DNA of 64,000 bases. It comes from Channa argus (lineage: Eukaryota). The notes under the pieces are model-generated. The model searched no databases. It saw only the letters and a list, made by a program, of their open reading frames with translations, and was not told the DNA's origin. Within the stretch, counting starts at the first letter, position 1. The number at the start of each line of letters is the position of its first letter. Both the position numbers and the translations under genes were made by a program. Shown here piece by piece: positions 23,833-64,000 of this stretch. The stretch lies in contig NC_090205.1 in NCBI RefSeq assembly GCF_033026475.1, positions 6,037,544-6,101,543 on the forward strand. The letters are read 5' to 3'.

Positions 23833-26385
23833 TTGCGTATGATACTAGATACAGTTGCCCCTCTGAAAAAGAAGGCAGTGAATCAGAGGAGGCGACCTCC
23901 ATGGTACAATTCACAAATGCACAGCTTAAAGCAGGCGTCACGAAAATTAGAGAGGAAGTGGCGTTCCACTAATTTAGAAGAATCCCGGTTAGCCTGGAAA
24001 AACAGTTTAAAAGTGTACAAAAAAGCTCTCCGTGATGCCAGAACAGCATATTATTCCGCACTAATAGAGGAAAACAAGAACAACCCCCGGTTTCTGTTCA
24101 GCACTGTAGCCAGGCTGACTAAGAGCCATAGTTCTGTTGAGCCTAGTATACCCTTAACTTTGAGCAGCAATGACTTCATGACTTTCTTTACTGATAAAAT
24201 TGCAGCCATTAGGGAAAAGATTCACCAGATCCTCCCTACAAATATTACAGATAGATCTTCATGTACAACAGCTCTAGAATCCTCAATAAGGCCCCAATCC
24301 ATCTTAGACTGTTTTTCACCCATAGATCTCACTGAGCTAAGTTCAACTATCGCCTCCTCAAAACTAACAACATGTCTTTTAGACCCTGTTCCAACCAAAT
24401 TGCTTAAAGATGTTCTACCTTTAATAGACACATTCATATTAGATTTGATTAACTTATCTTTAGAAACTGGCTATGTACCAAAGGCTTATAAAGTTGCTGT
24501 AATCAAACCATTACTTAAAAAACCCTGTCTTGATCCAGGTGATTTAGCCAACTATAGACCAATATCAAATCTCCCGTTTATTTCTAAAATCCTGGAAAAA
24601 GTAGTTGCAAAACAATTATGTGATCACCTTTACAGGAATAATTTGTATGAAGACTTTCAGTCAGGATTTAGAGTTCATCACAGTACAGAAACAGCACTGG
24701 TAAAAGTCTCCAATGATCTTCTCCTCGCTTCAGATAATGGACTTGTGTCCGTACTCGTCTTACTAGACCTTAGTGCCGCATTTGACACCATTGACCACAA
24801 CATTTTATTACAGAGACTAGAACATAGATTTGGGATTAAAGGAACCACATTACATTGGTTTAAATCTTATCTGTCAGACAGATTCCAACTTGTTCATATT
24901 AATGATGACTCTTCTTTATGCACCAAAGTTAGCTATGGAGTTCCACAGGGCTCTGTGTTAGGACCAATACTTTTTAATCTGTACATGTCACCTTTAGGCA
25001 AAATTATTAGGAAACATTCCATAAACTTCCACTGCTATGCAGATGATACCCAGCTCTATTTATCTGTGAAACCAGAAGATACTAACCAATTAGTCAAACT
25101 TGAAGCATGTCTAAAAGACATAAAGACCTGGATGTCCTACAATTTCCTACTTCTAAATTCAGACAAAACTGAAATCATCCTCTTTGGGCCTAAAAACATG
25201 AGAAATATGCTGTCTAACAATATAGTTACTTTAGATGACATAACTTTGGCCTCCAGTACTGCGGTGAGGAACCTTGGAGTTATTTTTGACCAGGATTTGG
25301 CATTTACGTCACATATAAGACAAATCTCTAGAACAGCCTTCTTCCACCTACGGAACATTGCTAAAATTAGAAGCATCCTGTCTCAAAGTGATGCCGAAAA
25401 ACTGGTCCATGCATTTGTTACTTCTAGGTTGGACTACTGTAATTCCCTACTTCTGGGGTGTCCTAATAACTCTCTAAAAAGCCTTCAATTAATCCAAAAT
25501 GCTGCAGCAAGAGTGCTGACTGGATTAGGAAAGAGAGATCATATTTCACCTTCACTAGCTTCTCTTCATTGGCTTCCCATAAAATCTAGAATAGAGTTCA
25601 AAACCCTCCTCCTTACATACAAAGCTCTTAATGGTCAAGCTCCATCATATTTAAAAGATCTCATAGTTCTGTATCGCCCGATTAGACCACTTCGATCCCA
25701 AAATACAGGCCTACTTGTGGTTCCCAGAGTTTGCAAAAGTAGAATGGGAGGCAGAGCCTTTAGCTATCAAGCTCCTCTCCTGTGGAACCAGCTTCCAATC
25801 CAAATTCGGGGAGCAGACACCCTCTCTACTTTTAAGACTAGGCTTAAAACCTTCCTTTTTGATAAAGCTTATAGTTAAACTGCTCACTCAACCTGAACTA
25901 GCTTTTCTCTATACATTTACTTGTCACTACTGTATACCATTAATTCTATATCCTACAACCTGCACGATGCTTTGTTGTTGCTTTTTTGTTGTTTTGTTGT
26001 TGCTTTTCTTGTTGTTTTGTTGTTGCTTTTTGTTGTTGCTTTTTGTTGTTTTGTTGTTGCTTTTTTGTTGTTTTGTTGTTGCTTTTCGTTGTTGCTTTTC
26101 GTTGCTCTTTTCTTTTCTTTCTCCACTTTCCACTCACCCCAACCGGTCAAGGCAGATGGCCACCCACCCTGAGCCTGGTTCTGCTGGAGGTTTCTCCCAT
26201 TAAAGGGAGTTTTTCCTCTCCACTGTTGCCTAGGGCTTGCTCAAGGGGGATTTGTTGGGTTGCTTCTACATACTTGTGTAGTCTGGACTTTATTCTGTAA
26301 AGTGCCTTGAGATGACTTTGTTGTAAATTGGCGCTATATAAATAAAGTTGAATTGAATTGAATTGAATTGAATTGAACAACAACC
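23833..26385 (+). mobile_element. L2-clade non-LTR retrotransposon, 5'-truncated (RT domain ORF 23833-25878 plus 3' tail with microsatellites)
   Basis: A 681-aa ORF carries the RT motifs FDTIDHNILLQRLE, GVPQGSVLGPILFNLYM and YADDTQLY, and the L2-type C-terminus LQLIQNAAARVLTGLGKRDHISPSLASLHWLPIKSRIEFKTLLLTYKALNG. The tail carries a (TTGTTG/TTTTG)n tract at 25958-26110, and the conserved 3' tail ends in (TTGAA)n at 26345-26385. The paralogous empty site at 56100-56160 defines the boundaries. Confidence 0.85.
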
Positions 26386-26774
26386 TTTATTGTCATTGAG
26401 AACATATATGTATTACACATCCATAAATGTCTTTAAATTTGTACTATGACATGTAAACAGCAACAACTGCTGTAGTAACTTATTTGATAATCTGTTTAGA
26501 CCTGTATATATAGTTGAAGTTTAAACATTTATATACACATTAAAAAGCAATTTTAAAAGTCGGATTTTTAATACAAATAATATAAACTTTTTCTAGTTAA
26601 TGTTTAATTTTTACAATAATATAAAAACTAAATGTTAAACTCTTTAAATTGGTTGATATATTAATATAATAATAATAAAACTGAAATAACAAAACACATA
26701 TTAGGTGTAAACAAAAATATAACACAATTCAAAGAAAGATAATAAAAATTTAACTTGGATAAAAACAGACCTAT

Positions 26775-27050
26775 GGTGGACAAGGAGACCGATGAGTCCA
26801 GTCAACAGGAAAACACTCAGCAGCCCCAGACAGAGACCAACTCTTTAAAACCCCTCTCTGAGCTCCTGGGACCTAAGCAGAGAAAACAATCCACTTAATC
26901 CAGTCCTCTATCAGAAATAACAGATGAAAGAACAGATTTATTCCCACTCAGTCTGTCAGCGTCTGATTGAACATTCTTACCTGTCTGATTTGTTGAAGGT
27001 CTTGAGTTAAGAGCCTTCTCTTATTCAACATTGACATACATTTTGTCCAT
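26775..27050 (-). pseudogene. CLR gene B remnant (cytoplasmic exon with premature stop + TM exon only)
   Basis: Exon 1 reads ATG GAC AAA ATG TAT GTC AAT GTT GAA TAA (MDKMYVNVE*). The TM exon at 26775-26875 carries a 2-nt deletion relative to gene A. No neck or CTLD exons follow on the 3' side, where the L2 insertion lies. Confidence 0.6.
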
Positions 27051-28744
27051 GATCATAAATTTGTCAGGTCAGTAAGTGCAAATGATAAAGACTTGTTGGT
27101 TTCAGATGCTAAGAACACAGGGTTTAAAATGACAGGTTTTTGTTGTTTTAATGTTGGACAATACAAACCATCATCATTAGAAGACACGGCAAACTACACT
27201 AATAGAGGACTGAAGCACATAGTTCAGTCTCTTCACACTTCTGACATTTACTGTAATAAAGTGACATCAGTTCAGGACACGGTTGTGGAAATGAATAGAA
27301 AACACAGTCCCATTTATTCTACCCAACCTGATGCAGCTTTGTAATTTCCTTCTTAGTTCCTGGAAAGAACAGTGGCACAAAGGTTTCACAGTTTAGAATA
27401 AATGTACAGAAGTTGAGGGGCCGGGGTGGGTTGGGCTGTTAAGACAACACAGCTACAAAAATAAACACAGTGCACTGTGACTGTTGACTGTACAACTGTG
27501 TTGTAAATATAAATCCTGCACTTGAGATATTGTGACTTCCTGTCTCTGCTATGTGTCTCTTAAATTAAATTCCTCTTAATCCTTGAACATTTGTCTTCCT
27601 CCACTTTTACAATGGAAGTTTGACCCACTATTGTTACCTGCTAAATATTTTTATGATATATTAGAAGTGTCGCAGTTATATAAGAAAGATTCTCTATAAC
27701 CTTCATCCACCACCAGAAGCCCTGAGAGCGGGCATGTGAGCATCAGAACTGGACCACAGAGCGATGGATAAAGGGGGCCTGGTCTGGTTGTTTGCATGTG
27801 CATCACTTACTCAGGAAAAGATGCTACCAGGATGCACTATGGCAGAAAGGGAAGCTGGCAAAAACAGTGTGATGCTCCTGACAATGTTCTGGAGGGAAAC
27901 CTTACGTTCTGCCATTCTTGCAGATGTTACTTTGACAAGGTACCACCTACATAAATGCTGTTGCTGAGCTGAAGTACACGGAAACCGTATTTCCTAATGT
28001 CTGTGGTCTCTTTTAGTGGTCTCTGCCACACTGCAAAAAAAGGTTCAACAATGGTTTGAAGAAAACACTGAGTTTGAGGTATTGACTTTGCCTCCAAATT
28101 CTATAAATCTCAATGCAGTCATCGGTGTGTGAGTGGGTGAATGAGAAGCAACATTGTAAAGTGTTTTGGAAAAAAGTGTTGTATAAGTTGCCATTTATCA
28201 TTTATCCTCAGGCTCTGATATAGAGATAAAGATATGTCATTACACCACGTTATTACCAAATTAAACAGTTTATGAAATGGTGCAGCTCCCACCATCTCAT
28301 GGTCACAAACCATAGTAAAGTTAGGGTTATACTGGTAATATTTTGTTTTTGTATTTATGATTTGCAGTGTTACGTTTTGTCTTGTTTTACCATGTATAAA
28401 TATCAGCCTCATTCAAATGAGTGAGTGAGAGCAGTGAGGTACAAGACCCACAGTACACAAAGAATCCCAGAAAACACTGCTGCAAACACAGTTTTCCATA
28501 TGAACCTGTCAATGTAGGCAAATGCTTGTGTTTGTACACTAATGGCGTCCAAAGGCCAGAGATGACATAGTCAGATTCTCTGTGCATGGTAACATTAATA
28601 CCACTTAGTGGACAGGAGTCAGCCCTGATAGACGGGTATCGAACCACACGGGTCATCAGAGCTGGCAGCGTATGTGGTTGTACATGCTGAACCCCCGTCC
28701 ATCACAACATTGAGCAGTTGCATCTAATGTTGTGATGTGTTACA

Positions 28745-32426: not shown

Positions 32427-34657
32427 GTGTTCTTTACTAAGCCTGAGCACGGACTGTAAGGCAAACTGTGAACTGAACCGTACTCTGCCTGTACGGCTGA
32501 GCCTGGGAGTCCGAGCTGAGGGCAAACAAAACCTTCCATTACACACTAATCGGTTTACGCGCACACAAATCTTGCAGACGGAACAGTAGCAAAATTCCAC
32601 CGATAAAATCACAATTGTGAGGCTTTCCAGCACTTTTGCTTATAACCTAAGTGTTTTCTCGGATTACTAGACATTTACAGTTAGTTATTTGAGTGAATAC
32701 ATTTGCACATTATTTTACACAAATATTACAGTTACAGATTTGTTATATATTTGTTATAAACCTGTTATATTTTTATTGTTTACCTCTACACTTGTTCTGA
32801 TTGCAATTTTTACATTTCCCATGAGTAAGATGTCTAATTATACGAGTCACAGAGTGCTATGACTCATCAGATGGCACTCATTGATATAACATCTGCAAAG
32901 AATTTTGTTCCTGTTTCACGACCTGATGTTGACCTGTGCAAAGATTCTAGTGATGAAAATCACTATGTAAATATTCTATATAATACTTTCTAATCTATGC
33001 TTAGCTCTGTACCCCAGTGATGCCTATGTCACACAAAAACAAAAGTGCCTGAGTTTTCTATACAACATAAAGAGGATGTATATTGAATCTTTATGAATTT
33101 GTACATCTGATGACTTCTGTTGTGTCTTGTGATTAAAATGTAATCAAAAGGAGGGAATTGTGATGGAAAATCAAGTATGATTAAATTATTGCATTTTACT
33201 CTTAGCATCTTACCAAGTTATAATGGCAACTTGTACTCACTGTACTTTTGAAATATTGTTCAAATTTTGTCTCATATACATGTTTTGTGTCAAAGTGTTT
33301 GCAGAACTGCTCCAAGGTCATTTACTGTCTAACAGCAGACCATCCCACACTGCAGTGACCCAGAGTCACTTCATGCTCACAGGTGCTTATCAAAGTGCTG
33401 GAAAGGGAAAAGGTTCCATAAAAGGAGAAAAGAGCTGGGAGCCAGAGCCTGAGGGTGGAGAATGTTCTGCCCAGCAACAGAAGGTTCTAAAAAGGTTCTA
33501 ATGTGTGATGTATGAAGTTTAGAACTGCATAGGATGGAGAATTGATACTGTCGATGTACTTTTCTCTTGCAAGATAATAAAACCCTAAAAGACGTCCTGG
33601 ATGTTGAAGCTTCTTTACTGATTACACTTGAGGTGTCTAAGACCAGATATTGTCATTTTTGCCATGGCAGAGAAGAAATAGATGAAATGCAGAAATGGAT
33701 TCTCTGATTAGTCTATTGTGTTTGTATATATGTTAAAGACCTGTGTCATAATGCTACAATAATAACTTGTCTATTTTTTTAGTCCTTTTTATGTGGCAGA
33801 TTAAGCTGAATATGTTCAGGTGAATGAATCCAGGTTTATAAACAAATTTTTTTAAAAAGATCTTATTTCCCAACTATTTGACTTCTAATTTACCAAACGA
33901 CATGTTTGCTGGGTTGTATTATTAGGCATTACCATGTATTCAGAGTATCATCAATGTGGAAGAAATCACAAAACTAGAAGTGTTGTTCTTATGGAGTTTT
34001 TACTTTGCATGAGATGATCTTTCAACACAGAACATGTTTGTATATAAATGAAACAGGTGCACAGGGACAAGATATATTACTGTAAGTCAGACCTCGACCC
34101 AAAAGCAGAATGAGCACACAAACACACACAGGCTGAGGAAAGGAAGTAAATTAAGTTTAATTAGGACAATTGGAGAAAACAAAGGCTGACTGCTCAAACT
34201 AAAAACACCTCACAGAGAGAAATATTAATACAAAATACAACAAAAGGAGGGATGAGGGATAAAGCTGACAAACTCAGGGGTCCAGTACTATATGAAAGTC
34301 AACTAAACAAGGCAGAGCACACCAGAGGGCAAACAGTTCAGGTCTGAGTACTGCAGAGGAAAGAGGATAAACCAGACAGTTCGGACTGTGGGAGCTGACA
34401 GAACACAGACAGAGTCTGCTCTGAGGCAGGTTTAAGAAGGTTCATGCTAATCAGCAGCAAGTGCAGGCAGCTGCGCATCCATCCACAGCATCAGTCCAGG
34501 GTGAGACAATGACAGGGAGGAAGAGCAGCCACCTACAGAGGGAGACAGAGTTACAACAAAAATAAGCAAAGCACAAAAACACACAGGCCTTGACAGAGCA
34601 TATTCATGTTTTATATGAAACATTTCCATATGTATAATGTCAAAACATTTACCAGTG

Positions 34658-35483
34658 TTACACTTTTTTCTCACAGATCCATTGCTGAGATACTTCACAG
34701 GACAGGTCATTCCACTTGTGACCTTTTTGAACATTAATTTCTGCACAGTCTTCTCCATCAGTCGAATATTTAAGAAGATTATCGGGCTGCTTCACATCCC
34801 AGTATCCACATACTATTTAGCCAGATCAGATTCTTTCCTATTTTTCCCCCCAATCTTTACAATGAACTGATGCCCATAATTTAAGTTCCATGTGCTAAAA
34901 AATCAGATATAATAAAACACATTTGCTTACAGGCATAATGCTAATCTAATAGAGACTAAGAGACTAAGTGAAGGTGAAGTTGGTGTTTATCTGGTGCTGA
35001 ACAGCTACATCTACTTTTCCTGCTAAACTTTTTTTCTCAAAACTAACTATTGTAATAATAATTCAATTTTTTCATTTTAAAATGCCATAAAAGTTTTGTA
35101 AATTAAAAAACCTAAGTAAGAAACTTGAGAAGTAAAATTAGTCAAACTAAATGACAATACTTCTGAAACTCATAAAGTGACTCTGGTATTAACTTATAAA
35201 ACACAGACTCACAGTGGACACCGAGGACGATGAGTCCAGCCAACAGGAAAACACTCATCAGCCCCAGACAGAGACCAACAGCTTTATAAAGTCTCCTGTC
35301 TGAGCTCCTGGGACCTGAACAGAAAAAGACCAGTAAACACAGTCTTAGATCAGAAATAACATATGATTAAAACAGATTTAATCTCCACTCAGCAACTAAT
35401 TAAACATTCTTACCTGTGTGATTTGTTGAAGGACTTGAGTAAACAGACTTGTCATGTTCAACATTGACATATATTTCCTCCAT
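34658..35483 (-). pseudogene. CLR gene C: internal-deletion derivative (cytoplasmic exon + TM exon + 3' part of last CTLD exon with QPD motif)
   Basis: Exon 1 (35483-35414) reads MEEIYVNVEHDKSVYSSPSTNHT and is intact. The TM exon (about 35313-35211) is intact. Then the TM-neck intron is fused directly to CTLD3 (...ggctaaatagtatgtgga|tactgggatgtg), which removes the neck, CTLD1, CTLD2 and the CTLD3 acceptor. The remaining CTLD3 reads YWDVKQPDNLLKYSTDGEDCAEINVQKGHKWNDLSCEVSQQWICEKKV*. Confidence 0.6.
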
Positions 35484-42057: not shown

Positions 42058-45000
42058 TTACACATTTTTCTCACAGATCCATCGCTGAGATACTTCACAG
42101 TACCGGTCATTCCACTTGTGACCTTTTAGAACTTTAAGTTCTGCACAGTCCTCTCCGGTAAATGAATAACATTTGTTATCACTAGGTTCTCCCTCATCCC
42201 AGTTCCTAAGAGGTGAATGAACAAAACAAAAAAACAATCGGGAAATTGTGAATATCTGACATAAAAAGACTCTTGATGGTCTCTATGTTGATAACTTATT
42301 AAATGTTATGACAGCAGTGGTGCAGTCAGAGCCAACAGTATTGAAACAGACAGGAAGTGTGTCAGCAGTCATTCTAGCAGCTCTGAGAGTCTCCAGTCAG
42401 TGGTGTTCAGAGCCAAATGCTAACTTGAGCTTTTATGTCTTATTTCATCTTTTTTAATCTAATTAATTCTCGTTTGTCTCTTTTCTTTGCAATGGTTTAG
42501 TTCGTTGCTTTTGTTTCTGTGATTTAGGATTTTGGTCTTTTGTTTTGACAAAACACACATTAAATCTAAATACATCTGGAAATAAACAAAGTGAAGTATA
42601 TTACTGTCTTTCTTAAAAGTCAGTGTAGTTCCATCGATCCATCTCCAGGTCCCCTCTTCATCACTGTCACTCAAACCAATCCAAGTTCCCATTGTGGTGA
42701 ATGCAGAGAGAAATGTCTGTTCAATTGAAACAAAAGACAATCGCTGCAATTATATTTTAGTTGTAACCAGCAGGAGTGAGACACAAAGACACAGCACACA
42801 CACATTCATATCCACAAAAAAAGCTGAAACACTTCCATTCATGATACAGTGGATTCAGAAAGCAGTCACATGCTCATATTTCTTCCTCATGTCCATATTA
42901 TCCACATTTATTATAATAGTGGCATAACTGTTAGATTGGCCTGCAACATCAACAATGTATAAAAATATAAAGTACAGATTCATTTAATTATGATTGAAGC
43001 TTATTTTAGATCTGAAATTAGCAGAAGAAACTATTAAAGCATCATCTGAATTGCAGAAAGCATTTTTTTTGCAAAACTATCACTTTACATGTTGTCACTT
43101 TAATAAAAGATATGTAAAAATCCCTGATCATGTTCATCATTCTTTAATGCAACCGCAAGGGGGCACAAGCCAGTGTCTTCTTGTGCCAGTCCCAAGTCTG
43201 GATAAATGCAGATTGTTGTGGCAGGTAGGGCATCCGACGTAAAACACATGCCAAATCAAACATGCGAATCGTGACAAAGACTTCCATACCGGATCGGTCG
43301 GGGCCCGGGTTAACAACGACCGCCACCGGTGCTGTTGACCTACAGGGTACCGGTGGAAATTGGACTACTGTTGGTCGAAGACGAAGAAGAAGAGGAGGAA
43401 GGTGTGTTCGTAGGCAGAGAGAGAATGTAGGACTGACAGTAGGGACTTTGAATGTTGGTACTATGACAGGGAAGGCTAGGGAGTTGATCGACATGATGCA
43501 GAGAAGGAAGGTGGACATACTGTGTGTCCAGGAGACCAGGTGGAAAGGTAGCAAGGCTAGAAGCTTAGGAGCAGGGTTCAAGTTGTTTTACCATGGGTCA
43601 GATAGGAAGAGAAATGGAGTAGGAGTTATATTGAAAGAGGATTTTGTGAGGAATGTTCTAGAGGTGAAAAGAGTATCAGACAGGTTGATGAGTCTGAAGC
43701 TGGAAGTTGAAGGGGTGATGTTCAATGTTGTGAGTGGTTATGCCCCACAGGTAGGATGTGAGTTAGAAGAGAAGGAGAAATTCTGGAGTGAGTTAGATGA
43801 AGTGATGCAGAGCATCCACAGAGGTGAGAGAGTTGTCATTGGTGCAGATTTCAATGGGCATGTAGGTGAAGGGAACAGAGGTGATGAGAATGTGATGGGC
43901 AGGTTTGGTGTTCAGGACAGGACTGCAGAAGGTCAGATGGTGGTTGACTTTGCAAAGAGGATGGAAATGGCTGTAGTAAACACTTTCTTTCAGAAGAGGC
44001 AGGAACATAGGGTGACGTACAAGAGCAGGGTAGAAGCACTCAGGTAGACTACATCTTGTGTAGACGTTGTAATCTGAAAAAGATCAGTGACTGTAAAGCA
44101 TTGGTAGGGGAGAGTGTAGCCAGACAACACAGGATGGTGGTGTGTAAAATGATGCTGGTGGTGAGGAAGATAAGGAGGACTAAGGCAGAGCAGAGGACGA
44201 AGTGGTGGAAGTTGAAAAAGGAAGAATGTCGTTTAGTTTTCAGGGAGGAGCTGAGACAGACTCTGGGTGGTTTGGAGGTGCTTCCAGATGACTGGACTAC
44301 TACAGCTAATTTGATCAGGGAGACAGGTAGGAGGGAACTCGGTGTGTCATCTGGAAAGAGGAAAGCGGACAAGGAGACTTGGTGGTGGAACGAGGAAGTT
44401 CAGGAGTGTATACAGAGAAAGAGGTTAGCTAAGAAGAAGTGGGACACTGAGAGGACTGAAGAGAGTAGACAGGAGCACAGGGAGATGCAGCGTAAGGTGA
44501 AGATAGAGGTGGCAAAGGCCAAACAAAGAGAATATGAGGACTTGTATGCTAGGTTGGACAGTAAAGAGGGAGAGGTGGATTTGTACAGGTTGGCCAGACA
44601 AAGAGACAGAGATGGAAAGGATGTGCAGCAGGTTAGTGTGATTAAAGATAAGGATGGAAATGTATTGACAGGTGCCAGGAGTGTGATGGGAAGATGAAAG
44701 GAGAACTTTGAAGAGTTGATGAACGAGGAAAATGAAAGGGAACGAAGAGTAGAAGAGGTGACTGGTGTGGAGCAGGAAGTAGCAAAGATTAGTAAGAGTG
44801 AAGTGAGGAGGACATTGAAGAGGATGAAGAGCGGAAAGGCAGTTGGTCCTGATGACATACCTGTGGAGGTATGGAAGTGTCTAGGAGAGGTGGCAGTAGA
44901 GTTTTTGACTAGTTTGTTTAACAAGATCTTGGAGAGTGAGAGGATGCCAGAGGACTGGAGGAAAAGTGTACTGGTACCAATTTTTAAGAACAAGGGAGAT

Positions 45001-46639
45001 GTGCAGAGCTGTGGCAACTACAGAGGAATAAAGCTGACGAGTCACACAATGAAGTTGTGAGAAAGAGTAGTGGAAGCTCGGCTAAGGGCAGAGGTGAACA
45101 TTTGTGAGCAGCAATATGGTTTCATGCCTAGAAAGACTACAACAGATGCAGTATTTGCTTTGAGGACGCTGATGGAGAAGTACAGAGAGGGTCATAGGGA
45201 GTTGCATTGTGTCTTCGTAGATTTAGAAAAAGCGTATGACAGGGTGCCGAGAGAGGAGCTGTGGTATTGTATGAGGACGTCTGGAGTGGCAGAGAAGTAT
45301 GTTAGAGTGGTGCAGGACATGTATGAGTGGAGGTGGAGGAAAATCTAGAGAGGTGGAGGTCTGCTCTGGAAAATAGAGGAATGAAGCTTAGCCGCAGTAA
45401 GACAGAATACATGTGTGTGAATGACAAGGACCCAGGTGGAATGGTGAGGTTACAGGGAGCAGAGGTGAAGAAGGTGCAGGACTTTAAGTCAACGGTTCAG
45501 AGCAACGGTGAGTGTGGAAAAGAGGTGAAGAGGCGAGTGCACGCAGGTTGGAACGGGTGGAGAAAAGTGTCAGGTGTGTTGTGTGATAAAAGAGTATCAG
45601 CAAGAATGAAAGGAAAGATGTTCAAGACAGTGGTGAGACCAGAGATGTTGTTCAGCTTAGAGACAGTGGAACTGAAGAAAAGACAGGAGTCAGAGCTGGA
45701 GGTAGCAGAGCTTAAAATGTTGAGGTTCTCTTTGGGAGTGACGAGGATGGACAGGATCAGGAATGAGTACATCAGAGGGACAGCTCATGTTAGATGTGTT
45801 GGAGATAAAGTCAGAGAGGCCAGATTGAGGTGGTTTGGACATGTTCAGAGGAGAAACTGTGAATATATCGGTAGAAGGATGCTGAGGTTGGAGCTGCCAG
45901 GCAGGAGGTCTAGAGGAAGACCAAAGAGGAGATTTATGGATGTAGTGAGGGAGGACATGAAGTTAGTTGGTGTGAGTGAAGAGGATGCAGAGGATAGAGT
46001 TAGATGGAGGCACATGATTCGCTGTGGCGACTCCTGAAAGGGAGCAGCCGAAAGGAAAAGAAGAAGAAGTTCATCATTCTTTGTTTGGACACACTGCACC
46101 TGTTCTTCAGCACTGTTAATGACCACCAGGTCTGCTCCTCTCTTTCTGCAGTCCTCTCTGCCTTTTGTCCATGAACCAGACTCAGTGGACAGGAGATAAC
46201 AGGAGTAGATGAACATCATCCATCCTGCAGGACAAGTTTTCTCTGCAACGTAAAACAATAGATATTAGAAATGTATCAAGACACAACTCCATCTACTGCC
46301 AGAGAAAGATGGTATGAAGTAAAACATGCAAACAGAGGAGTTTTAAGTGTCTTCACATCTTAACATTTTAATGTGCTCACAGAATGTGAACGTGTCCTTA
46401 ATCTTAAACATATAGTGAACAGTTCACAAGTCTAAACCCTTGACAAGATCAAATGTCCTGTCCCTCACTGCCCACACTCACTCACTCTGACACTTGTTCA
46501 GTTCCTCTGCTGTTTTATTGAGTCTGGCTTTCAGCTGGTCTCTCTCTTCAGTCAGTGAAGACACTTTGTTCTTACTGTCCTGGAGAAGCTCAGTCAGGTT
46601 GGTTTTGATGCTGGAGAGTTCTGTTGCTGAGTTATAATC
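42058..46639 (-). pseudogene. CLR gene D: CTLD3 (EPS variant), CTLD2, [RTE LINE in intron], CTLD1, neck; cytoplasmic and TM exons deleted
   Basis: - CTLD3, about 42230-42058: NWDEGEPSDNKCYSFTGEDCAELKVLKGHKWNDRYCEVSQRWICEKNV*.
- CTLD2, about 42738-42620: IEQTFLSAFTTMGTWIGLSDSDEEGTWRWIDGTTLTF.
- CTLD1, about 46230-46080: TCPAGWMMFIYSCYLLSTESGSWTKGREDCRKRGADLVVINSAEEQ.
- Neck, about 46639-46470, with a 12-nt in-frame deletion relative to gene A.
Upstream, the neck-TM intron is joined directly to the 5' flanking block at about 46985, so no TM exon or exon 1 remains. Confidence 0.6.
43146..46068 (+). mobile_element. RTE-type non-LTR retrotransposon (APE endonuclease + RT), near full length, ORF disrupted by several stops/frameshifts, flanked by 14-bp TSD
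   Basis: ORF 43262-44047 is the APE domain (LNVGTMTGKARELIDMMQRRKVDILCVQETRWKG...VVIGADFNGHVGEG). The RT region (44716-46037) carries [32 protein letters not shown] and [14 protein letters not shown], and ends ...HMIRCGDS*. The TSD gttcatcattcttt is present at 43132-43145 and 46069-46082. Confidence 0.85.
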
Positions 46640-56450: not shown

Positions 56451-56999
56451 AAAAAAACACTTTAATAAGCAATTTTAAAGTTGGATTTTTAATACAAATA
56501 ATATAAACATTTTATAGTTAATGTTTAGTTTTTACAATAATTTAAAAACTAAATGTTAAACTCTTTACATTGGTCCATATATTACTATAATAATAAAACT
56601 GAAATAACAAAACACATTAGGTGCAAACAAAAATAACACACAATTCAAAGAAAGATAATAAAAATTTAACTTGGATAAAAACAGACTCATGGTGGACAAG
56701 GAGACCGATGAGTCCAGTCAACAGGAAAACACTCAGCAGCCCCAGACAGAGACCAACTCTATAAAACCCCTCTCTGAGCTCCTGGGACCTAAGCAGAGAA
56801 AACAATCCACTTAATCCAGTCCTCTATCAGAAATAACAGATGAAAGAGCAGATTTATTCCCACTGAGTCTGTCAGCGTCTGATTGAACATTCTTACCTGT
56901 CTGATTTGTTGAAGGTCTTGAGTGAACAGACTTGTCATGTTCAACATTGACATATATTTTGTCCATGATCATAAATTTGTCAGGTCAGTAAGTGCAAAT

Positions 57000-57960
57000 G
57001 ATAAAGACTTGTTGGTTTCAGATGCTAAGAACACAGGGTTTAAAGTGACAGGTTTTTGTGGTTTTAATGTTGGACAATACAAACCATCATTAGAAGACAC
57101 GGCAAACTACACTAATAGAAGACTGAAGCACATAGTTCAGTCTCTTCACACTTCTGACATTTACTGTAGTAAAATGACATCAGTTCAGGACACGGTTGTG
57201 GAAATGAATAGAAAACACAGTCCCATTTATTCTACCCAACCTGATGCAGCTTTGTAATTTCCTTCTTAGTTCCTGGAAAGAACAGTGGCACAAAGGTTTC
57301 ACAGTTTAGAATAAATGTACAGAAGTTGAGGGGCCGGGGTGGGTTGGGCTGTTAAGACAACACAGCTACAAAAATAAAACAGACTTTGACTGTGTGTATG
57401 TGTTGTAAATATAAATCCTGCACTTGAGGTATTGTGACTTCCTGTCTCTGCTGTGTGTCTCTTAAATTAAATTCCTCTTAATCCTTGAACATTTGTCTTC
57501 CTCCACTTTTACAATGGAAGTTTGACCCACTATTGTTACTTGTTGCTAAATATTTTTCTGATATATTAGAAGTGTCGCTGTTATAAAATTAAGATTCTCT
57601 ATAACCTTCATCCACCGCCAGAAGCCCTGAGAGCGGGCATGTGAGCATCAGAACTGGACCACAGAGTGATGGATAAAGGGGGCCTGGTCTGATCAATCAC
57701 GCTTTCTTTTACATCATGTGGATGGTTGGTTGCATGTGCATCACTTACTCAGGAAAAGATGCTACCAGGATGCACTATGGCAGAAAGGGAAGCTGGCAGA
57801 AGCAGTGTGATGCTCCTGACAATGTTCTGGAGGGAAACCTTACGTTCTGCCATTCTTGGAGATGTTACTTTAACAAGGTACCACCTACAGAAACACTGTT
57901 GCTGAGCTGAAGTACACGGAAACCGTATTTCCTAATGTCTGTGGTCTCTTTTAGTGGTCT
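57000..57960. repeat. Segmental duplicate of 27060-28030 (upstream flank of CLR genes B/F)
   Basis: The two copies are near-identical, including ORF 56922-57257 matching ORF 27093-27344. The blocks are gaagtgtcgc(a/t)gttata...ccttcatccaccaccagaagccctgagagcgggcatgtgagcatcagaactggaccacagag. Confidence 0.8.
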
Positions 57961-58797
57961 CTGCCACACTGCTGTAGCCCGTCTACTCTCCTTTAGGTGT
58001 ATGAGGGGCCCTGAGTTCTTTACTTAGCTCTAAACTCAGTTTTGATTACTTGAATATTTTTTATGGTCTTGAATTTCACCTGTAAAAGCAGATTATTACT
58101 AACTTCAAATACACTAGTTTACTCACCCTTTAAGAAATCTTTTTAGAACTGGGATATCTATCGAAATTATTGAAGCAATAACATCACAAAACAGTTCTAG
58201 TTTAAACTTAAATCCCTATTTAATTGAAAAGTAAAAATAAAAAGATATATGAATATATATAATAACTTAAAATGTTTACATTCCTTATTCCTAAATAATA
58301 TATATTCTTAAATATATGGCACAGTATCAGAACAAAAAATACATTTACCCTTCAGGGCTGTTTAACCTGACTCACAGATGTTTTAACTGTCCTTTTATCA
58401 AAAACTCAATCAATTAATAAAACCAAAAAATAGTTGCAGGCCTGAGTCGGTGCTGGGGGGCGTTGTGACCAAAAACTCAGTGGCCGCTTCTCTCCAACAA
58501 GAGCAACAAACAAACTAAAATGTGATACCTTTTTCACAGGTGAGCGATATGTCCAACCAATCCTGCGACTCCCTCTGTCACTGTCTCCGAGTCAGACGTC
58601 TGTAGAGCTGTAGAGCCTGTCCAAAGGTGTCTCTGTTCCCCGAATCAGCAACAGTTCAACACGACACGTGTAGCTGGGTTAGCTTGGTTAGCTAGCTGCC
58701 TCCCTCGGTTGACGCTGTTACTACTCCTCATCGGATTGATGAGTAGGTCCTCTCCTGATAAACACTTCGTATTTCTCGCTGAAATACTTAGTCCATC

Positions 58798-59299: not shown

Positions 59300-62200
59300 G
59301 ACTTGACCTCAACAACAGAAAGTATAGACTATCCTTACCCATTTCTCTAACCCTTTCCAATCTTAATTACAACACCTCTATGTATAATGGTAATTGGCTG
59401 ATCTCGGCCCTTTACTGGCTCATCATATGTCAGCCTAACAACCGGTTTCACTGCTCCCTTGGGTCGTGAGTCCAGCCCTCTGGACCTTTGGCCACCTGAA
59501 ATTACGGGGCTTTCTGTCAGATTTGAAGACTGTTTACAAGTAGGGTCTTCATCTTTCTCACAATTTCCTTGGTCGGGATCACTTTCACTTTCTGAAGAAT
59601 CTTGGCTATGCTCATGCTCTTCTTCATCCAGAGGCTCCACCTCAGAACCAGTCTCCTGGTGACTCTCATCTGATTGTGCCTGAACAATTACCTCTTCTTC
59701 TAGGCGAGCTGAGGGATTAGCAGGGCTCCTAGTATTTTGCTCCCTGTTTCCTAAGTATGTACAATAGTGTCTGAGAGGTCTGCAGTACTCAGAGTCAGAG
59801 GACGAGTCTTAATCTAGAACATCTTGCAAAATTGTCTGTACGTCTGGTGAGGTTTGCTTTCGTTTCCTGTGAGTTTCCGCTCTGGTCTTTGGCCTGACAG
59901 GTGAATCCTCATCCTTCTTGGTTTTAGGAAACTGCACAAGTTGCCCTATTGGGAGGATGTGGTCTCTATGGATTGTTTTGATATCTCCTCTTCCATTCTC
60001 AAGCTTGACCTTATAAACAGGAAGGTTGGGCATCTTTCCCACCACAATGTAAGGAATAGAACTCCATCGACTCTGCAGCTTGTTTTTGCCCTTCAGCCCC
60101 AAGTTTTTGAGCAGGACTCGATCACCAACTTCCAGGGACTGAAAAATAACTCTTTTGCCACATGATCTTTTATTTCTTTGGTGAGTCTTGTCTGCTGCTT
60201 GAAAGGCTAATTGGTACACTCTCTGCAAATCCTCCTTCAACCTTGCTACATATCTTGAATGACCATCTCACTTCCCATCTGGAGATATTCCAAAACACAC
60301 ATCTACAGGAAGTCTAGCTTCTCGGCCAAACATCAAGTAATTGGGTGAATACCCTGTAGCATCACACTTAGTACTATTGTATGCATGGACCAAATAAGCC
60401 ACATGCTGGCTCCAATGGCGTTTCTCTTCTTAGGTCAAGGTTCCTAACATAAAGAGTAAAGTTCTGTTGAATCTCTCCGGCAGAGGATCCCCTTGTGGGT
60501 GATATGGAGTAGTCCGTGACTTTCGCACTCCCATCACCTTCAAAAGATCTCTGATCAGGTGACTCTCAAAGTCTCTACCCTGGTCTGAATGAATCCCTGC
60601 AGGCAGACCATAGTGTACAAAGTACTTGTCCACTAAGATCTTTGCCACAGTCTTAGCCTTCTGATTTTTAGTGGGGAAAGCTTGGGCATAACGAGTAAAA
60701 TGGTCTGTGACGACTAACACATTAGTCATTCCTTCGGAATCAGGTTCCATCGAAAGAAAGTCAATACACACAAGGTCCATTGCTTATGATTTGATGTATA
60801 GAGGCTGCTCTTTGACAAGGTGACTTCCGTATAATGCACTGTCCACAGTTTTTCACATACTGCTCAGCATCCTTTGACATTTTAGGCCAGAAAAATCTAC
60901 TCCTCAGCAGGTCAGTTGTTCTTTCAATGCCAAGGTGTCCTAAATCATCATGCAAGGACTTCAACACAGTCCCATGAAATTCTTTTGGTAAGACAAGCTG
61001 AGCGAACTCTTCACCTGATTACCCATCCGATAAAGTATCCCTTCTTTCAGGATCAATTTGTCCGCTTCTCGTTTCAACTGTGACAGTTCTAGATCATATA
61101 GGGTATTCTCAGGCCATTTCTGTAGCACAACTGCTTGAATAGCAGCCCCAATCACTGAGTCAGCTTTCTGTGCATGTAAGAGTTCTGGCTTTGAGGTCAT
61201 TAGAGTTGCTCTAATGACCTCAACTTCACGTGCATTGGGAAGGTGTAGATGTCAGGAACACAATCGGGGGAGGCTCCCAACTGATCCGCATATCTGGTTT
61301 GACTGTCTATAGCTCTAGGGGTGCAGACTCTTTGACAGACAGTCTTCATCCCATCCTGTGGGAGGGTCTCCCATTCCAAGCAGTCATCTTCATCAGGAAA
61401 GTTTCTGGAGAGGAGGTCAGCATCTATGTTGTGCTTACCTGGTCGGTATCGTCCATCAAAATCATAGGTTGATAAGGCAGCGAGCCATCTGTGTCCAACT
61501 GCATTAAGTTTGGCTGATGTGAGTACGTACATCAAAGGGTTGTTGTCAGTACGTACTGTGAACTGAGCCCCATACAGGTAATCATGGAACTTGTCCACAA
61601 CGGCCCACTTGAGAGACAGGAATTCAAGCTGATGTATTGGATAGCGCTTTTCAGACTGGCTCAGCTTCCTGCTAGCAAATGCAACCGGTCTTAGTCCCTC
61701 AGGATACTCCTGGTAGAGAACAGCTCCAATCCCCTTTAAGCTAGCATCCACATGAAGGATGTAGGGTCGATGAGGATCAGCAAACACTAGGAAAGGCGCA
61801 TGGGTCAGACAGTAGATGATCTGATGAAATGCATCAGTACAAGACTGCTCCCATCTTTCACCAAATGGCTCTGATGCTCTCAGATAGCTCTTAGTAGGGT
61901 CATGGTTATGCTTCCTGCTCTTTTGGGTTGGGGCATAACCTTTGGTTAGCTCGGTCAGTGGCTTGACAATGGAGGCATAGTTGGCTATAAACCTCCGATA
62001 ATACCCACAAAATCCCAAAAATGATTTTAGGGTCCTCAGGTCAATAGGCTGTGGCCAGTTAGTAACAGCCTCAATCTTCACTGGATCAGGTGAGACACCA
62101 TCTGCAGACACAACATATCCAAGATATTTCACCTTTGACTGACAAAACTGACATTTATCGAGAGATATTTTCAGTCCAGCCTCCTCAAGTCGGTCAAGAA

Positions 62201-64000
62201 CTTTCAGAAGTCTCTCCTCATGTTCCTCTAAAGTCTTTCCAAAGACAAACAGGTCATCAAGATAAACAAGAACTTGGAGCAAGTTCATGTCACCAACTGT
62301 TTTTTCCATTAATGGTTGGAAAGTAGCAGGGGCTCCAGTAATGCCCTGTGGCATTCGTTCAAACTGAAAGAACCCTAGGGGGCAGATGAATGCTGTCTTC
62401 TCCTTGTCTTCCTCAGCCATGGCTATTTGATAATAGCCACTTCTCAAGTCAAGAACAGAGAACCACTTGCTTCCAGACAAAGAGTCCAGTACATCATCAA
62501 TGCAAGGTGTAGTGTACTGACCAGGCCATTCAGTAGTCGGTAATTAATACACATCCTTATGGTCCCATTTTTCTTTCTGATGATAACTATGGGTGAAGCA
62601 TAGGGGCTGCGAGACTCTTTAATAATACCAGCACATAGGAGCTGCTTTCTCACATCCTCGATGTCTGCAGGAGTCAGGCCGCGAGAACGCTGTCTGAAGG
62701 GTCTGGGGTCAGACAGTCGAATGGTGTGTTCCACCACTTTAGCTAATCCTACATCCCATTCAGTCAGAGAAAAGACATTTGTTCTTTGGGACAGCTTCTG
62801 CTTCAGCCTCTCCTTCCACTCCCCTGAAACTGGTGAGTCTCCAAAATTAATCATGCTGACATCAAAACCTACTGGTGGTGTCTTCTCAAGGGGAACAGCG
62901 GTGACACTCTCAGTGAGATACATATGTGCCATAATTGTTCCTTCTGGTATGGTTGTCTCTTTTAAGGATTGGTTCTGAACCAGTATTCTGAAGTTGTTAA
63001 CATTAATGCCATGACCTGGCACAACCATGGGCTGCAATAGCATACTGGCTGGGAGCTGGTCTGAGGGGGATGAATCAACTATAAGGATTTCTTTACGAAC
63101 TGGCTGATTAAAGTCAACTTTACAGACAATTTGCTTATCTTCACCTGGTGTAAAGTCAGAGGACCAGGGCCTTGCCAGGTCACAACCCCAACATTGTCAT
63201 CTGCATCAGTATCAGCAATTTCACCTACACTGTCTGCTTGTAATCCTAGTATCTGTGTGACGTCGAAGCCATTGTATCTGCATTGTTTCACTAAACTTCT
63301 GACATGACTGGTATTTGTTCCAACAATAACAGGGGTCTGTTCTGTAGTCCATGGACTAGGGCAGATAAGTGCCAGAACAGTTAGTTTTACAGCTGCCAGT
63401 GACTTTGGCTGGATAATCAAGGTCCACCACAACGTAGCCACGGTAAGGGTAGCTGTCTACAGATTCACTCAAACCCCAGAGAGCCAATCCAGCCACAGGA
63501 TGTACTGGAACATCGCACAGGTGCTTTTGATACCTTGACTCAAAGATGATAGTAATCCGAGAGCCACTGTCAAACACAGCGTCACAGAGATGCCCATTAA
63601 CTTTTAACTGCACTATGCTGGGTGGGCCAATCAATCCCTCATGTAGGCTTGCATGTTCTGGTGTTATAACCAGGCCCTTCTTGACACTGCAGTTCCTATC
63701 ACCCCCTGGCATGTTTGTAGATGGCTGACTTCTTTTAGACACTTTAAGGGCCTGAATCAGTCTTTTAATAACTTTGCTTTGATTGTCTTGATTGTGGCAC
63801 CTTGCTGCAAAATGTCCATTTTCTCCACACCGGTAGCAAAACTGCTCCTCAGATGGTCTTGAGGTTCTGGTGGGGAGATTGGCTACTTTGGGGGCAACTT
63901 CTACTGTTGAAGCAATAGCTGGGCTGACTGGACTATCTGCTGTTGTGACCTTCTTACTGAGCTTAAGCTGTAATCTTTTTACTTGTTTTTGTAAAGCTCT
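59300..64000 (-). mobile_element. Ty3/Gypsy LTR retrotransposon, internal region (gag zinc knuckle, protease, RT, RNase H, integrase, chromodomain-like C-terminus); frameshifted; continues beyond the window end
   Basis: - Gag CCHC knuckle, about 63850-63800: CYRCGENGHFAARC.
- Protease, ORF 63356-63742: AVFDSGSRITIIF.
- RT, ORFs 62444-63043 and 61200-62480: YLDDLFVFGKT.
- RNase H: FTVRTDNNPLMYVL.
- Integrase, ORFs 60761-60967, 60430-60780 and 59809-60240: the HHCC finger HDDLGHLGIERT...CGQCIIRK, then DHFTRYAQAFPTKNQKAKTVAKILVDKYFVHYGLPAGIHSDQGRDFES.
The domain order gag-PR-RT-RH-IN is of Ty3/Gypsy type. The domains lie in different frames, which indicates frameshifts. Confidence 0.85.

What the first reader, a model, noticed from the sequence alone, without database searches (positions are those of the whole stretch)
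34658..35483. Gene C: ~1.3-kb internal deletion leaves a possible in-frame mini-receptor (cytoplasmic tail + TM + 47-aa CTLD C-terminus carrying QPD)
The deletion joins the TM-neck intron to the interior of the CTLD3 exon. If the cryptic acceptor atag|TATGTGGATACTGGG is used after the phase-1 TM exon, the reading frame continues into ...CGYWDVKQPDNLLKYSTDGEDCAEINVQKGHKWNDLSCEVSQQWICEKKV*. Such a product could not fold as a CTLD, but it would keep the signalling tail and TM. It is possibly a decoy or dominant-negative form, and more likely an expressed pseudogene. The divergent QPD loop sits in this copy, which raises the question of whether the loop diverged before or after the gene became inactive.
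Basis: inference. Interest (0 to 1): 0.5.

Follow-up and report, generated by a model that had tools for sequence, protein, structure and literature searches.

The report
Truncated fish lectin-receptor pseudogene remnant
This is a broken copy of a snakehead-fish immune sugar-receptor gene that lost its three middle exons. Its "unusual" sugar-binding loop is copied from intact sister genes, so it is an ordinary decaying gene duplicate rather than a new kind of mini-receptor.

Summary
Gene C (minus strand, 35483-34658) keeps the cytoplasmic-tail exon, the TM exon and the last CTLD exon of a CD209/CLEC4-like type II lectin receptor. It lacks about 1,285 bp (neck, CTLD1 and CTLD2 exons) relative to its 91%-identical intact neighbour A (22885-20785). 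An AG at 34814-34813 would join the phase-1 TM exon in frame to give a 108-aa product.

Two corrections. The right breakpoint lies exactly at the last exon's native acceptor, not in its interior. QPD is the majority state in this family, not a divergent one.

The mini-receptor idea is unsupported:
- The in-frame AG is ancestral intron sequence, also present unused in A and D, with the weakest pyrimidine tract of the sites compared.
- A ~540-bp insertion sits 66 bp after the stop, and A's polyA-like hexamers have no counterpart.
- Neither Channa argus annotation has a protein from this copy.
- AlphaFold gives the stub pLDDT 48.5.

The loop question is answered. Gene C's loop half is 23/23 identical to intact annotated QPD genes (XP_067371565, XP_067371567-9), and its other half is 24/25 identical to A. 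It is a gene-conversion mosaic, not post-inactivation drift. Five of the seven family copies in the window are broken. Verdict: ordinary birth-and-death pseudogene.

The parts
35414..35483 (-). Gene C exon 1: cytoplasmic tail MEEIYVNVEHDKSVYSSPSTNHT(G). ATG at 35483, donor gtaaga, phase 1.
   Evidence: 2/70 nt differ from paralog A exon 1.
35213..35314 (-). Gene C exon 2: juxtamembrane plus transmembrane segment (G)PRSSDRRLYKAVGLCLGLMSVFLLAGLIVLGVH. Acceptor tcag, donor gtgagt, phase 1.
   Evidence: 4/102 nt differ from A. The GLMSVFLL variant is shared with intact P0180.
34806..35212 (-). Remnant of the TM-neck intron, homologous to A 22614-22216. It contains several AG dinucleotides with better pyrimidine tracts than the in-frame one (34894, 34955, 34963), all leading to stops within 2-9 codons.
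34804..34814 (-). Deletion junction and cryptic in-frame acceptor: ag at 34814-34813, putative exon start 34812, last intron-homologous base 34806, orphan base A at 34805, first base homologous to the A exon at 34804. 1,284-1,285 bp of A (22215-20931) are missing here.
   Evidence: The same aaatag|TATGTGG sequence is present in the introns of A (22222) and D (46676).
34736..34804 (-). 5' half of the last CTLD exon: ligand-binding loop YWDVKQPDNLLKYSTDGEDCAEI (QPD motif). It is 23/23 identical to intact P0180, P0046 and P0049, and 17/23 to A. Ten of the 13 A-vs-C nucleotide differences in this exon fall in a 39-nt stretch here.
   Evidence: P(>=10 of 39) = 5e-8 to 1e-4 under the local background rates.
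34658..34735 (-). 3' half of the last CTLD exon: NVQKGHKWNDLSCEVSQQWICEKKV plus TAA (WND motif, Cys2/3/4 region). It is 24/25 identical to A and 16-17/25 to the QPD genes.
   Evidence: Pfam Lectin_C matches profile positions 75-107 only.
34054..34591 (-). ~540-bp insertion in the former 3' UTR, starting 66 bp after the stop. A-like 3' flank resumes at 34053-33999 (= A 20697-20643). The insertion is flanked by CACAAA[A/C]ACACACAGGC at 34572-34588 and 34117-34133.
20785..22885 (-). Paralog A, the intact reference copy. It has 6 exons (22885-22816, 22716-22615, neck 22184-~22020, CTLD1 ~21777-21635, CTLD2 21401-21298, CTLD3 20931-20785) and carries EPN..WND. It equals XP_067372126.1 (P0001) and P0121.

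Best explanation
Gene C is a non-functional remnant (pseudogene) of a CD209/CLEC4-like group II C-type lectin receptor gene. It sits in a tandemly duplicated, retroelement-rich cluster of the snakehead Channa argus.

Shown:
- It is a recent duplicate of the neighbouring intact gene A.
- It suffered a ~1.3-kb deletion that removed the last 30 nt or so of intron 2, the neck, CTLD1 and CTLD2 exons, and the acceptor of the last exon.
- It later, or separately, acquired a ~540-bp insertion in its 3' UTR.
- Its last exon is a mosaic: the sugar-specificity loop (QPD) is identical to that of intact QPD-type paralogs elsewhere on the chromosome, and the rest is A-like.

Inferred:
- The mosaic arose by non-allelic gene conversion or recombination between paralogs. 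This happened either before the deletion or as part of the same repair event, since the conversion tract starts at the deletion junction.
- If the promoter (95% identical to A's over 370 bp) still fires, transcripts would splice exon 1 to exon 2. They would then retain the intron (80-aa tail+TM+24 aa) or use one of several cryptic acceptors. The in-frame 108-aa product would be at most a minor species, with no foldable ectodomain and no neck for oligomerisation.
For: - Homology blocks and missing interval.
- Base-level junction.
- Gene models and frame consequences of every AG.
- Family and species assignment (96-100% to C. argus XP_067372126.1; Lectin_C; CD209/DC-SIGN, CLEC4E and MRC structures).
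- Five of the seven family copies in the window are fragmentary or stop-bearing.
- D lacks the tail and TM exons and carries a LINE insertion and a gt->ga donor.
- Heterogeneous A-C divergence, with 10/39 in the loop and 3/108 in the rest of the exon.
- Identical loop in intact P0180, P0046 and P0049.
- 3' UTR insertion and missing polyA hexamers.
- Weak cryptic acceptor.
- No annotated or exact-match product.
- Stub not predicted to fold.
- An independent assembly is 99.87% identical over the adjacent 21 kb, which argues against a sloppy local assembly.
- Tandem expansion of the DC-SIGN subgroup in fish is documented (PMC514892). Homogenisation restricted to ligand-binding exons of C-type lectin-like receptors is documented (PMC3210942).
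Against: - No transcript data could be consulted, so expression is untested either way.
- The three surviving exons carry no stop, frameshift or splice-donor lesion, and the ATG is intact, so the copy is young and the in-frame product is arithmetically possible.
- The second assembly fetched (L001) stops 3 kb short of Gene C, so the deletion itself rests on one assembly.
- The direction and timing of the conversion (into C, or out of an ancestral QPD state in A) could not be resolved, because no DNA of the QPD paralogs was obtainable.
Confidence: 0.85

Rival explanations
1. Expressed mini-receptor. Exon 2 splices to the cryptic acceptor at 34812 to give a 108-aa type II membrane protein. It would consist of a tyrosine-motif tail, a TM segment and a 51-aa Cys-containing stub that retains all Ca2+-site-2 residues (QPD, E, WND), and it would act as a decoy or modulator.
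For: - The junction is in frame, and the ORF is open to the native stop.
- The promoter-proximal 370 bp, exon 1, intron 1 and exon 2 are 95-99% identical to the intact gene A, with intact splice signals.
- The stop would lie in the last exon, so NMD would not apply (inference).
- All five Ca2+-site-2 ligands are encoded in the surviving exon.
Against: - The acceptor has the weakest pyrimidine tract of the sites compared, T at +1, and is unused ancestral intron sequence in A and D.
- Better-looking AGs upstream give stops.
- There is no nearby polyA signal, and the 3' UTR is disrupted.
- No such protein exists in two annotations or in the 15-billion-sequence exact look-up.
- The stub has pLDDT 48.5.
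- The neck coiled coil needed for oligomerisation is deleted.
- The in-frame status depends on one orphan base, with chance about 1/3.
Confidence: 0.04
2. Transcribed pseudogene whose 5' exons are used only in non-coding, truncated or read-through transcripts: a tail+TM-only peptide of 60-80 aa, or chimeras with downstream exons of the cluster.
For: - The 5' part is intact.
- The RefSeq model of gene A (XP_067372126.1, 'partial') begins in a decayed upstream TM pseudo-exon at 26801. So splicing from dead upstream units into live downstream genes is at least modelled in this cluster.
- The Gene C exon 2 donor (phase 1) is frame-compatible with the A neck-exon acceptor (phase 1).
Against: - The two chimeric products tested and the intron-retention product are absent from the protein collection.
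- The A exons lie 12-13 kb downstream, with another pseudo-unit and a retroelement in between.
- No transcript data are available.
Confidence: 0.1
3. Assembly artefact or individual-specific structural variant: the real locus carries a full 6-exon QPD-type gene, and the 1.3 kb were collapsed in this assembly.
For: - The region is a tandem array of 75-93% identical repeats, where collapses occur.
- The deletion could not be checked in the second assembly.
Against: - The junction joins non-homologous positions (intron 2 to the exon 6 boundary) with no shared repeat. A collapse between paralogous repeats would not produce this.
- The adjacent 21 kb agree at 99.87% between two independent assemblies.
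- A second independent lesion lies in the same copy.
- Neighbouring copies show similar independent decay.
Confidence: 0.03

Closest known systems
CD209 (DC-SIGN)/CLEC4-like group II C-type lectin receptors of teleosts (annotated 'CD209 antigen-like protein C/E', 'CLEC4E-like'; the fish-specific DC-SIGN subgroup of Zelensky & Gready 2004, PMC514892)
   Same: The tail and TM exons and the last CTLD exon are 86-100% identical to annotated C. argus family members. The exon phases match (1, 1, then the three-exon CTLD), as does the Ca2+-site-2 signature (QPD ... E ... WND). The gene lies in a tandem cluster, as described for Fugu.
   Different: It lacks the neck and two thirds of the CTLD (exons 3-5) and the native acceptor of exon 6, so it cannot encode a lectin domain.
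Pseudogenes of birth-and-death immune lectin-like receptor clusters (e.g. Ly49/KLRA and other NK-complex C-type lectin-like pseudogenes in mammals; my own knowledge)
   Same: It is a young tandem duplicate disabled by structural lesions. It sits among intact paralogs, other fragments and retroelements, and sequence exchange between paralogs continues.
   Different: It is a teleost group II (Ca2+/sugar-binding type) cluster rather than group V. The surviving exons are still free of point lesions.
Homogenisation restricted to ligand-binding exons ('merohomogenization') in KLRC, KLRI, KLRB and KLRA receptors (Fossum et al. 2011, PMC3210942)
   Same: A ligand-binding segment (the 23-aa QPD loop) is identical among paralogs whose remaining CTLD exons are only 53-55/81 identical. 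The Gene C exon is a mosaic of two donor types.
   Different: Here the tract covers half an exon and ends up in a dead copy. Direction and timing are unresolved, and nucleotide-level tract mapping was not possible.
Alternatively spliced truncated or soluble DC-SIGN isoforms in human (Mummidi et al. 2001, my own knowledge; soluble isoforms discussed in PMC11490914)
   Same: This is a precedent for CD209-family products lacking the TM, neck repeats or part of the CRD. It is the nearest analogue of the proposed mini-receptor.
   Different: Those arise by regulated splicing of an intact gene at genuine splice sites. Gene C would need a weak cryptic acceptor created by nothing more than proximity after a genomic deletion.

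Membership tests
Group II C-type lectin receptor (CD209/CLEC4-like), functional member | Type II topology: N-terminal cytoplasmic tail followed by a single TM segment | tested here: met
   Exons 1-2 encode MEEIYVNV...RRLYK + AVGLCLGLMSVFLLAGLIVLGV. They are 86% identical to annotated C. argus family members.
Group II C-type lectin receptor (CD209/CLEC4-like), functional member | Extracellular coiled-coil neck | tested here: not met
   The neck exon (A 22184-~22020) lies inside the missing 1,285 bp.
Group II C-type lectin receptor (CD209/CLEC4-like), functional member | Complete CTLD (~125 aa: WIGL core, alpha1/alpha2, Cys1-Cys4) | tested here: not met
   Only the last exon survives. Pfam Lectin_C matches profile positions 75-107 of 107, against 3-107 for gene A. 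The partner of Cys4 (Cys1, in the CTLD1 exon) is deleted. AlphaFold gives pLDDT 48.5.
Group II C-type lectin receptor (CD209/CLEC4-like), functional member | Ca2+-site-2 sugar-binding signature (EPN or QPD ... E ... WND) | tested here: met
   QPD, GED and WND are all present in the 34804-34658 ORF. This is the same cassette as in intact P0180, P0046 and P0049.
Pseudogene (unitary remnant of a duplicated gene) | Clear homology to a functional paralog plus lesions that preclude the parental product | tested here: met
   It is 91% identical to intact gene A in two blocks. Three exons and two native acceptors are deleted, and there is a 3' UTR insertion.
Pseudogene (unitary remnant of a duplicated gene) | No protein product annotated or observed | tested here: met
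   There is no hit above 86% to the Gene C-specific exon 1-2 peptide and no Gene C-type mosaic last exon among the retrieved proteins. Exact look-ups of the 108-aa, 80-aa and two chimeric products were negative. Limitation: absence from annotation is not absence of expression.
Pseudogene (unitary remnant of a duplicated gene) | Absence of transcription/translation, or neutral evolution | not testable with these tools
   No RNA-seq was accessible. The non-loop A-C differences (6 nonsynonymous, 3 synonymous by inspection) are too few for a dN/dS test.
Galactose-type (QPD) CTLD | QPD motif in place of EPN at Ca2+ site 2 (Drickamer 1992 specificity switch; my own knowledge) | tested here: met
   VKQPDN in Gene C versus VMEPNN in A. 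It is irrelevant functionally without the rest of the domain.
hemITAM/ITAM-like signalling tail | Acidic residues followed by YxxL/I | tested here: inconclusive
   The tail reads MEEIYVNV: acidic EE plus Y, but V at +3. YVNV fits a YxN (Grb2-SH2-type) motif. The motif is conserved across the family (consensus MEEIYxNVEY).

The most novel reading that the evidence does not exclude
Gene C is transcribed from its A-like promoter and, through the cryptic acceptor at 34812, makes a 108-aa membrane-anchored stub. The stub keeps the conserved tyrosine-motif tail and a disulfide-capable fragment with all Ca2+-site-2 residues, and it has been retained as a signalling decoy or regulator of the intact CD209-like receptors. 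A broader version is that half-exon QPD/EPN cassette exchange is a routine way in which this fish cluster reshuffles sugar specificity, and dead copies serve as sequence reservoirs.
Probability: 0.04. Interest if true: 0.45.

Novelty: new member of a known kind. Interest (0 to 1): 0.15.

Why it matters
On its own it matters little. It is one more decayed duplicate in a rapidly turning-over fish innate-immune lectin cluster, and it should be annotated as a pseudogene rather than as a short receptor.

The modestly useful by-product concerns the sugar-specificity loop (QPD versus EPN). In this cluster it behaves as a movable cassette. An identical 23-residue loop sits in paralogs that are otherwise only about 65-68% identical in the rest of the CTLD, and a half-exon mosaic is preserved in the dead copy. 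This is a concrete, datable example of ligand-binding-segment homogenisation in a teleost group II lectin family. Such homogenisation is well documented for mammalian NK-complex lectin-like receptors but little described for fish CD209-like genes. It also warns that EPN/QPD states in such clusters are poor phylogenetic markers.

Tried and rejected
1. Fetching Gene C from an independent assembly. The look-up of encoding contigs worked only for P0121 (GCA_004786185.1). The resulting locus L001 covers window 10784-31762 and stops 3 kb short. RefSeq XP proteins have no positions on record.
2. Using fragment D as a handle. Its CTLD2 donor is mutated and no protein is annotated there. I spent the last homology search on this without gain, apart from confirming that D is unannotated.
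3. Using long ORFs near Gene C as handles. They are degenerate multi-copy LINE/RT fragments, so I did not pursue them.
I replaced it with the listing of cluster members and with folding of the contiguous 51-aa stub.
5. My first gene model for A used the donor CA|gtgagt and acceptor gagag|AAC (CQSQTC). The annotated protein shows CQKRTC, that is CAGA|gtcagt ... gcag|AGAG, so I corrected it.
6. I considered that the last exon at 34804 might belong to the upstream fragment at 40399-38093, which lacks a last exon. I rejected this. That fragment is of the other (50.4k-type) subfamily, and the exon's acceptor is gone in any case.
7. I considered C and D as reciprocal products of one rearrangement. 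I rejected this because both retain upstream sequence, part of intron 2 and a last exon, so they are separate copies with independent deletions.
8. MaxEnt-type splice scoring was not available offline, so I used pyrimidine content and run length against the family's real acceptors instead.
9. Literature searches found no paper on this C. argus cluster.

Full report
WHAT THE WINDOW IS. The window is eukaryotic, about 38% GC. A six-exon gene on the minus strand at 22885-20785 ("A") encodes a 243-aa type II membrane protein with a Pfam Lectin_C domain (E = 4e-25). Its closest solved relatives are the CTLDs of DEC-205/mannose-receptor-family proteins, DC-SIGN/CD209, DC-SIGNR and Mincle/CLEC4E. Apart from its N-terminal exon, its product is identical to "CD209 antigen-like protein C, partial [Channa argus]" (P0001 = XP_067372126.1), and to P0121 from a second C. 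argus assembly. A 21-kb locus from that second assembly (GCA_004786185.1, CM015721.1) matches window 31762-10784 at 99.87%. The window is therefore northern snakehead, in a cluster of the fish-specific DC-SIGN-like subgroup of group II C-type lectin receptors. That subgroup is known to be tandemly expanded in teleosts (PMC514892).

CHECK OF THE OBSERVATION. On the minus strand, Gene C has three parts:
- Exon 1 at 35483-35414: MEEIYVNVEHDKSVYSSPSTNHT, donor gtaaga, phase 1.
- A TM exon at 35314-35213: acceptor tcag, donor gtgagt, phase 1.
- An open frame, ...CGYWDVKQPDNLLKYSTDGEDCAEINVQKGHKWNDLSCEVSQQWICEKKV, ending in TAA at 34660-34658.

blastn of the locus against the window gives two collinear blocks with gene A: C 35854-34806 = A 23269-22216 (91.0%) and C 34804-34592 = A 20930-20718 (90.6%). 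The interval A 22215-20931 (1,284-1,285 bp) has no counterpart in C. It holds the neck exon, the first two CTLD exons, and the acceptors of the neck exon and of the last CTLD exon. So the ~1.3-kb deletion is real in this assembly. Joining the phase-1 TM exon to aaatag|TATGTGG (exon start 34812) is in frame and gives a 108-aa product.

There are four corrections:
1. The right breakpoint is at the exon boundary, not in the interior. A reads ccggttag|GTACTGGG and C reads TATGTGG-A-TACTGGG. All 48 codons of the last exon survive, but its own AG is gone.
2. The in-frame status depends on the single orphan base at 34805.
3. Homology to A ends 66 bp past the stop at a ~540-bp insertion (34591-34054), after which A-like flank resumes (34053-33999 = A 20697-20643). 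A has polyA-like hexamers at +137, +218 and +373, while C has none before +497, and that one lies inside the insertion.
4. QPD is not a divergent state. It is the majority in the family: 115 QPD..WND against 29 EPN..WND among 186 retrieved proteins.

SURROUNDINGS. tblastn with the six exon peptides of A finds seven copies or fragments, all on the minus strand:
- 56966-53254: stops in CTLD2, and no CTLD1 hit.
- 50434-48292: all exons open.
- D at 46630-42061: no tail or TM exons (a ~514-bp deletion relative to C), a 3.2-kb LINE-type insertion between CTLD1 and CTLD2, and the CTLD2 donor mutated gt->ga.
- 40399-38093: neck, broken CTLD1 and CTLD2 only.
- Gene C.
- 27050-26776: tail exon with a stop, plus a TM exon.
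- A.

Retroelement ORFs lie at 23.8-25.9k, 43.3-46.0k and 61.2-63.0k. Five of the seven copies are visibly dead, so Gene C is one of several independently decaying duplicates. This is the classic picture of birth-and-death evolution.

COULD THE MINI-RECEPTOR BE MADE? The evidence is against it:
- The in-frame AG was not created by the deletion. The same aaatag|TATGTGG lies in the TM-neck intron of A (22222) and D (46676), 33-38 nt upstream of their real neck-exon acceptor.
- Its upstream 16 nt hold 8 pyrimidines with a longest run of 3, and it has T at +1. Gene A's five real acceptors have 10-12 pyrimidines and runs of 5-9.
- Other AGs in the Gene C intron remnant look stronger: 34894 (tttttag), 34955, 34963, 35111 and 35123. 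All of them lead to stops within 2-15 codons.
- Retention of the intron would give an 80-aa tail+TM peptide.
- Terminal-exon definition would also lack a nearby polyA signal.
- A search of 5.8 billion clustered proteins with the 108-aa product returned only gene A (P0121) and two distant fish proteins.
- No retrieved protein exceeds 86% identity to the Gene C exon 1-2 peptide.
- Exact look-ups were all negative for the 108-aa product, the 80-aa intron-retention product, and two read-through chimeras with A exons. The annotated P0001 was found, while my own conceptual full-length A, which uses A's own exon 1, was not. This is evidence of absence from annotation only, not from the transcriptome.
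- The stub matches only the last third of the Lectin_C profile (positions 75-107 of 107). It lacks the Cys1 partner of Cys4, the WIGL core and both helices.
- AlphaFold2 with a 60-sequence family alignment gives mean pLDDT 48.5, pTM 0.19 and no residue above 70.
- The neck is deleted. It mediates oligomerisation in CD209-type receptors (established knowledge), so a dominant-negative mode by hetero-oligomerisation has no structural basis.

THE LOOP. A-versus-C divergence is very uneven:
- 2/70 in exon 1.
- 1/99 in intron 1.
- 4/102 in the TM exon.
- 45/397 in intron 2.
- 13/147 in the last exon. Ten of these fall in a 39-nt stretch encoding the loop, including both changes of EPN->QPD and a GAGGAT->CTTCTT block. 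Only 3/108 fall in the rest.

The probability of 10 or more differences in 39 nt is 5e-8 at the exon/intron-1 background rate, and 1e-4 at the overall rate. The explanation came from the cluster look-up. P0180 (XP_067371565.1, "CD209 antigen-like protein C isoform X2", an intact CTLD) and P0046/P0049 (XP_067371567-9) lie on the same chromosome. They carry exactly YWDVKQPDNLLKYSTDGEDCAEI.

Gene C residues 1-23 of the exon are 23/23 identical to these genes and 17/23 to A. Residues 24-48 are 24/25 identical to A and 16-17/25 to the QPD genes. P0046 and P0180 share 44/48 residues in this exon but only 53/81 in the two preceding CTLD exons. So the last exon, or its loop half, is exchanged among otherwise divergent paralogs.

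Gene C's last exon is therefore a mosaic produced by non-allelic conversion or recombination (inference). Its QPD loop is a copy of a loop in use in intact genes. Two points remain open, because DNA of the QPD paralogs was not retrievable. One is whether the conversion preceded the deletion. The other is whether both came from a single repair event, which the coincidence of tract start and deletion junction would allow. Homogenisation confined to ligand-binding parts is well documented for mammalian C-type lectin-like NK receptors (PMC3210942).

MECHANISM, WITH STATUS OF EACH STEP.
- Shown: duplication of an A-type gene; a 1.3-kb deletion removing exons 3-5 and two acceptors; a 3' UTR insertion; a mosaic last exon; no annotated product.
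- Inferred: gene conversion as the source of the mosaic; loss of function; if transcribed, mostly intron-retaining or prematurely terminated products, with the 108-aa product at best a minor and unfolded species.

COMPARISON AND NOVELTY. By sequence and exon structure, Gene C is a member of the CD209/CLEC4-like group II family, but it fails two defining features of a functional member: the neck and a complete CTLD. It meets the structural definition of a pseudogene. Truncated DC-SIGN isoforms in humans are the nearest analogue of the proposed mini-receptor, but they come from genuine splice sites of an intact gene. Nothing here lies outside known kinds. It is a new, unannotated member of a known kind, and the cassette-like sharing of the QPD loop is a modestly interesting side result.

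VERDICT.
- Observation: partly confirmed (real deletion, correct frame arithmetic, imprecise breakpoint, missed 3' lesion).
- Interpretation: partly supported (pseudogene yes; mini-receptor unsupported, about 4%).
- Interest: 0.15.

Noticed in passing
window 46630-42061 (minus strand), with 47765-46670 upstream: Fragment D is roughly the reciprocal of Gene C. It has the neck, CTLD1, CTLD2 and CTLD3 (EPS..WND) exons but has lost the tail and TM exons (~514 bp missing relative to Gene C). It carries a 3.2-kb LINE-type insertion (42904-46076; endonuclease and RT ORF fragments on the + strand), and its CTLD2 donor is mutated gt->ga. No protein is annotated for it.
   Followed up: yes
window 26801 (minus strand), inside the decayed TM pseudo-exon at 26841-26776: The RefSeq model of gene A (XP_067372126.1, flagged partial) starts with LDSSVSLSTI. 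This peptide is encoded out of the TM frame in the dead upstream tail/TM fragment (27050-26776), not in A's own intact exon 1 at 22885-22816. Either transcripts really splice from the dead unit into A, or the model is wrong. My conceptual full-length A using its own exon 1 is not in the protein collection.
   Followed up: partly
window 50434-48292 (minus strand): This is the second apparently complete gene of the window, of a different subfamily (~52-68% identity to A per exon). Its loop has EPN, but the WND motif reads WKD (VWKDLPC), so a Ca2+-ligating Asn is replaced by Lys. The stop-bearing copy at 53382-53254 shares this WKD.
   Followed up: no
window 56966-53254, 40399-38093, 27050-26776 (minus strand): There are three further decayed copies of the 50.4k-type subfamily. 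Each lies upstream of an A-type copy, and 26535-28034 is 93% identical to 56457-57972. The cluster looks like repeated duplication of a two-gene unit (E-type + A-type) followed by differential decay.
   Followed up: partly
window 34054-34591: A ~540-bp insertion in Gene C's former 3' UTR is bounded by near-identical 17-nt motifs (CACAAACACACACAGGC at 34117-34133; CACAAAAACACACAGGC at 34572-34588). It has no other copy in the window, and its nature (SINE-like or other element) was not determined.
   Followed up: partly
window 23833-25878 (+) and 61200-63043 (-): Long retroelement ORFs are present: an RVT_1 reverse transcriptase (681-aa ORF) between gene A and the 27k fragment, and an RT plus RNase H (LTR-retrotransposon type) near the window end, where GC rises to 45%.
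   Followed up: partly
proteins P0180, P0046, P0049 (C. argus, not in the window): An identical 23-residue QPD loop cassette occurs in genes whose other CTLD exons are only 53-55/81 identical. P0180 also has a duplicated neck (one D-like and one A-like repeat). This indicates pervasive exon-level mosaicism across the chromosome-wide cluster.
   Followed up: partly
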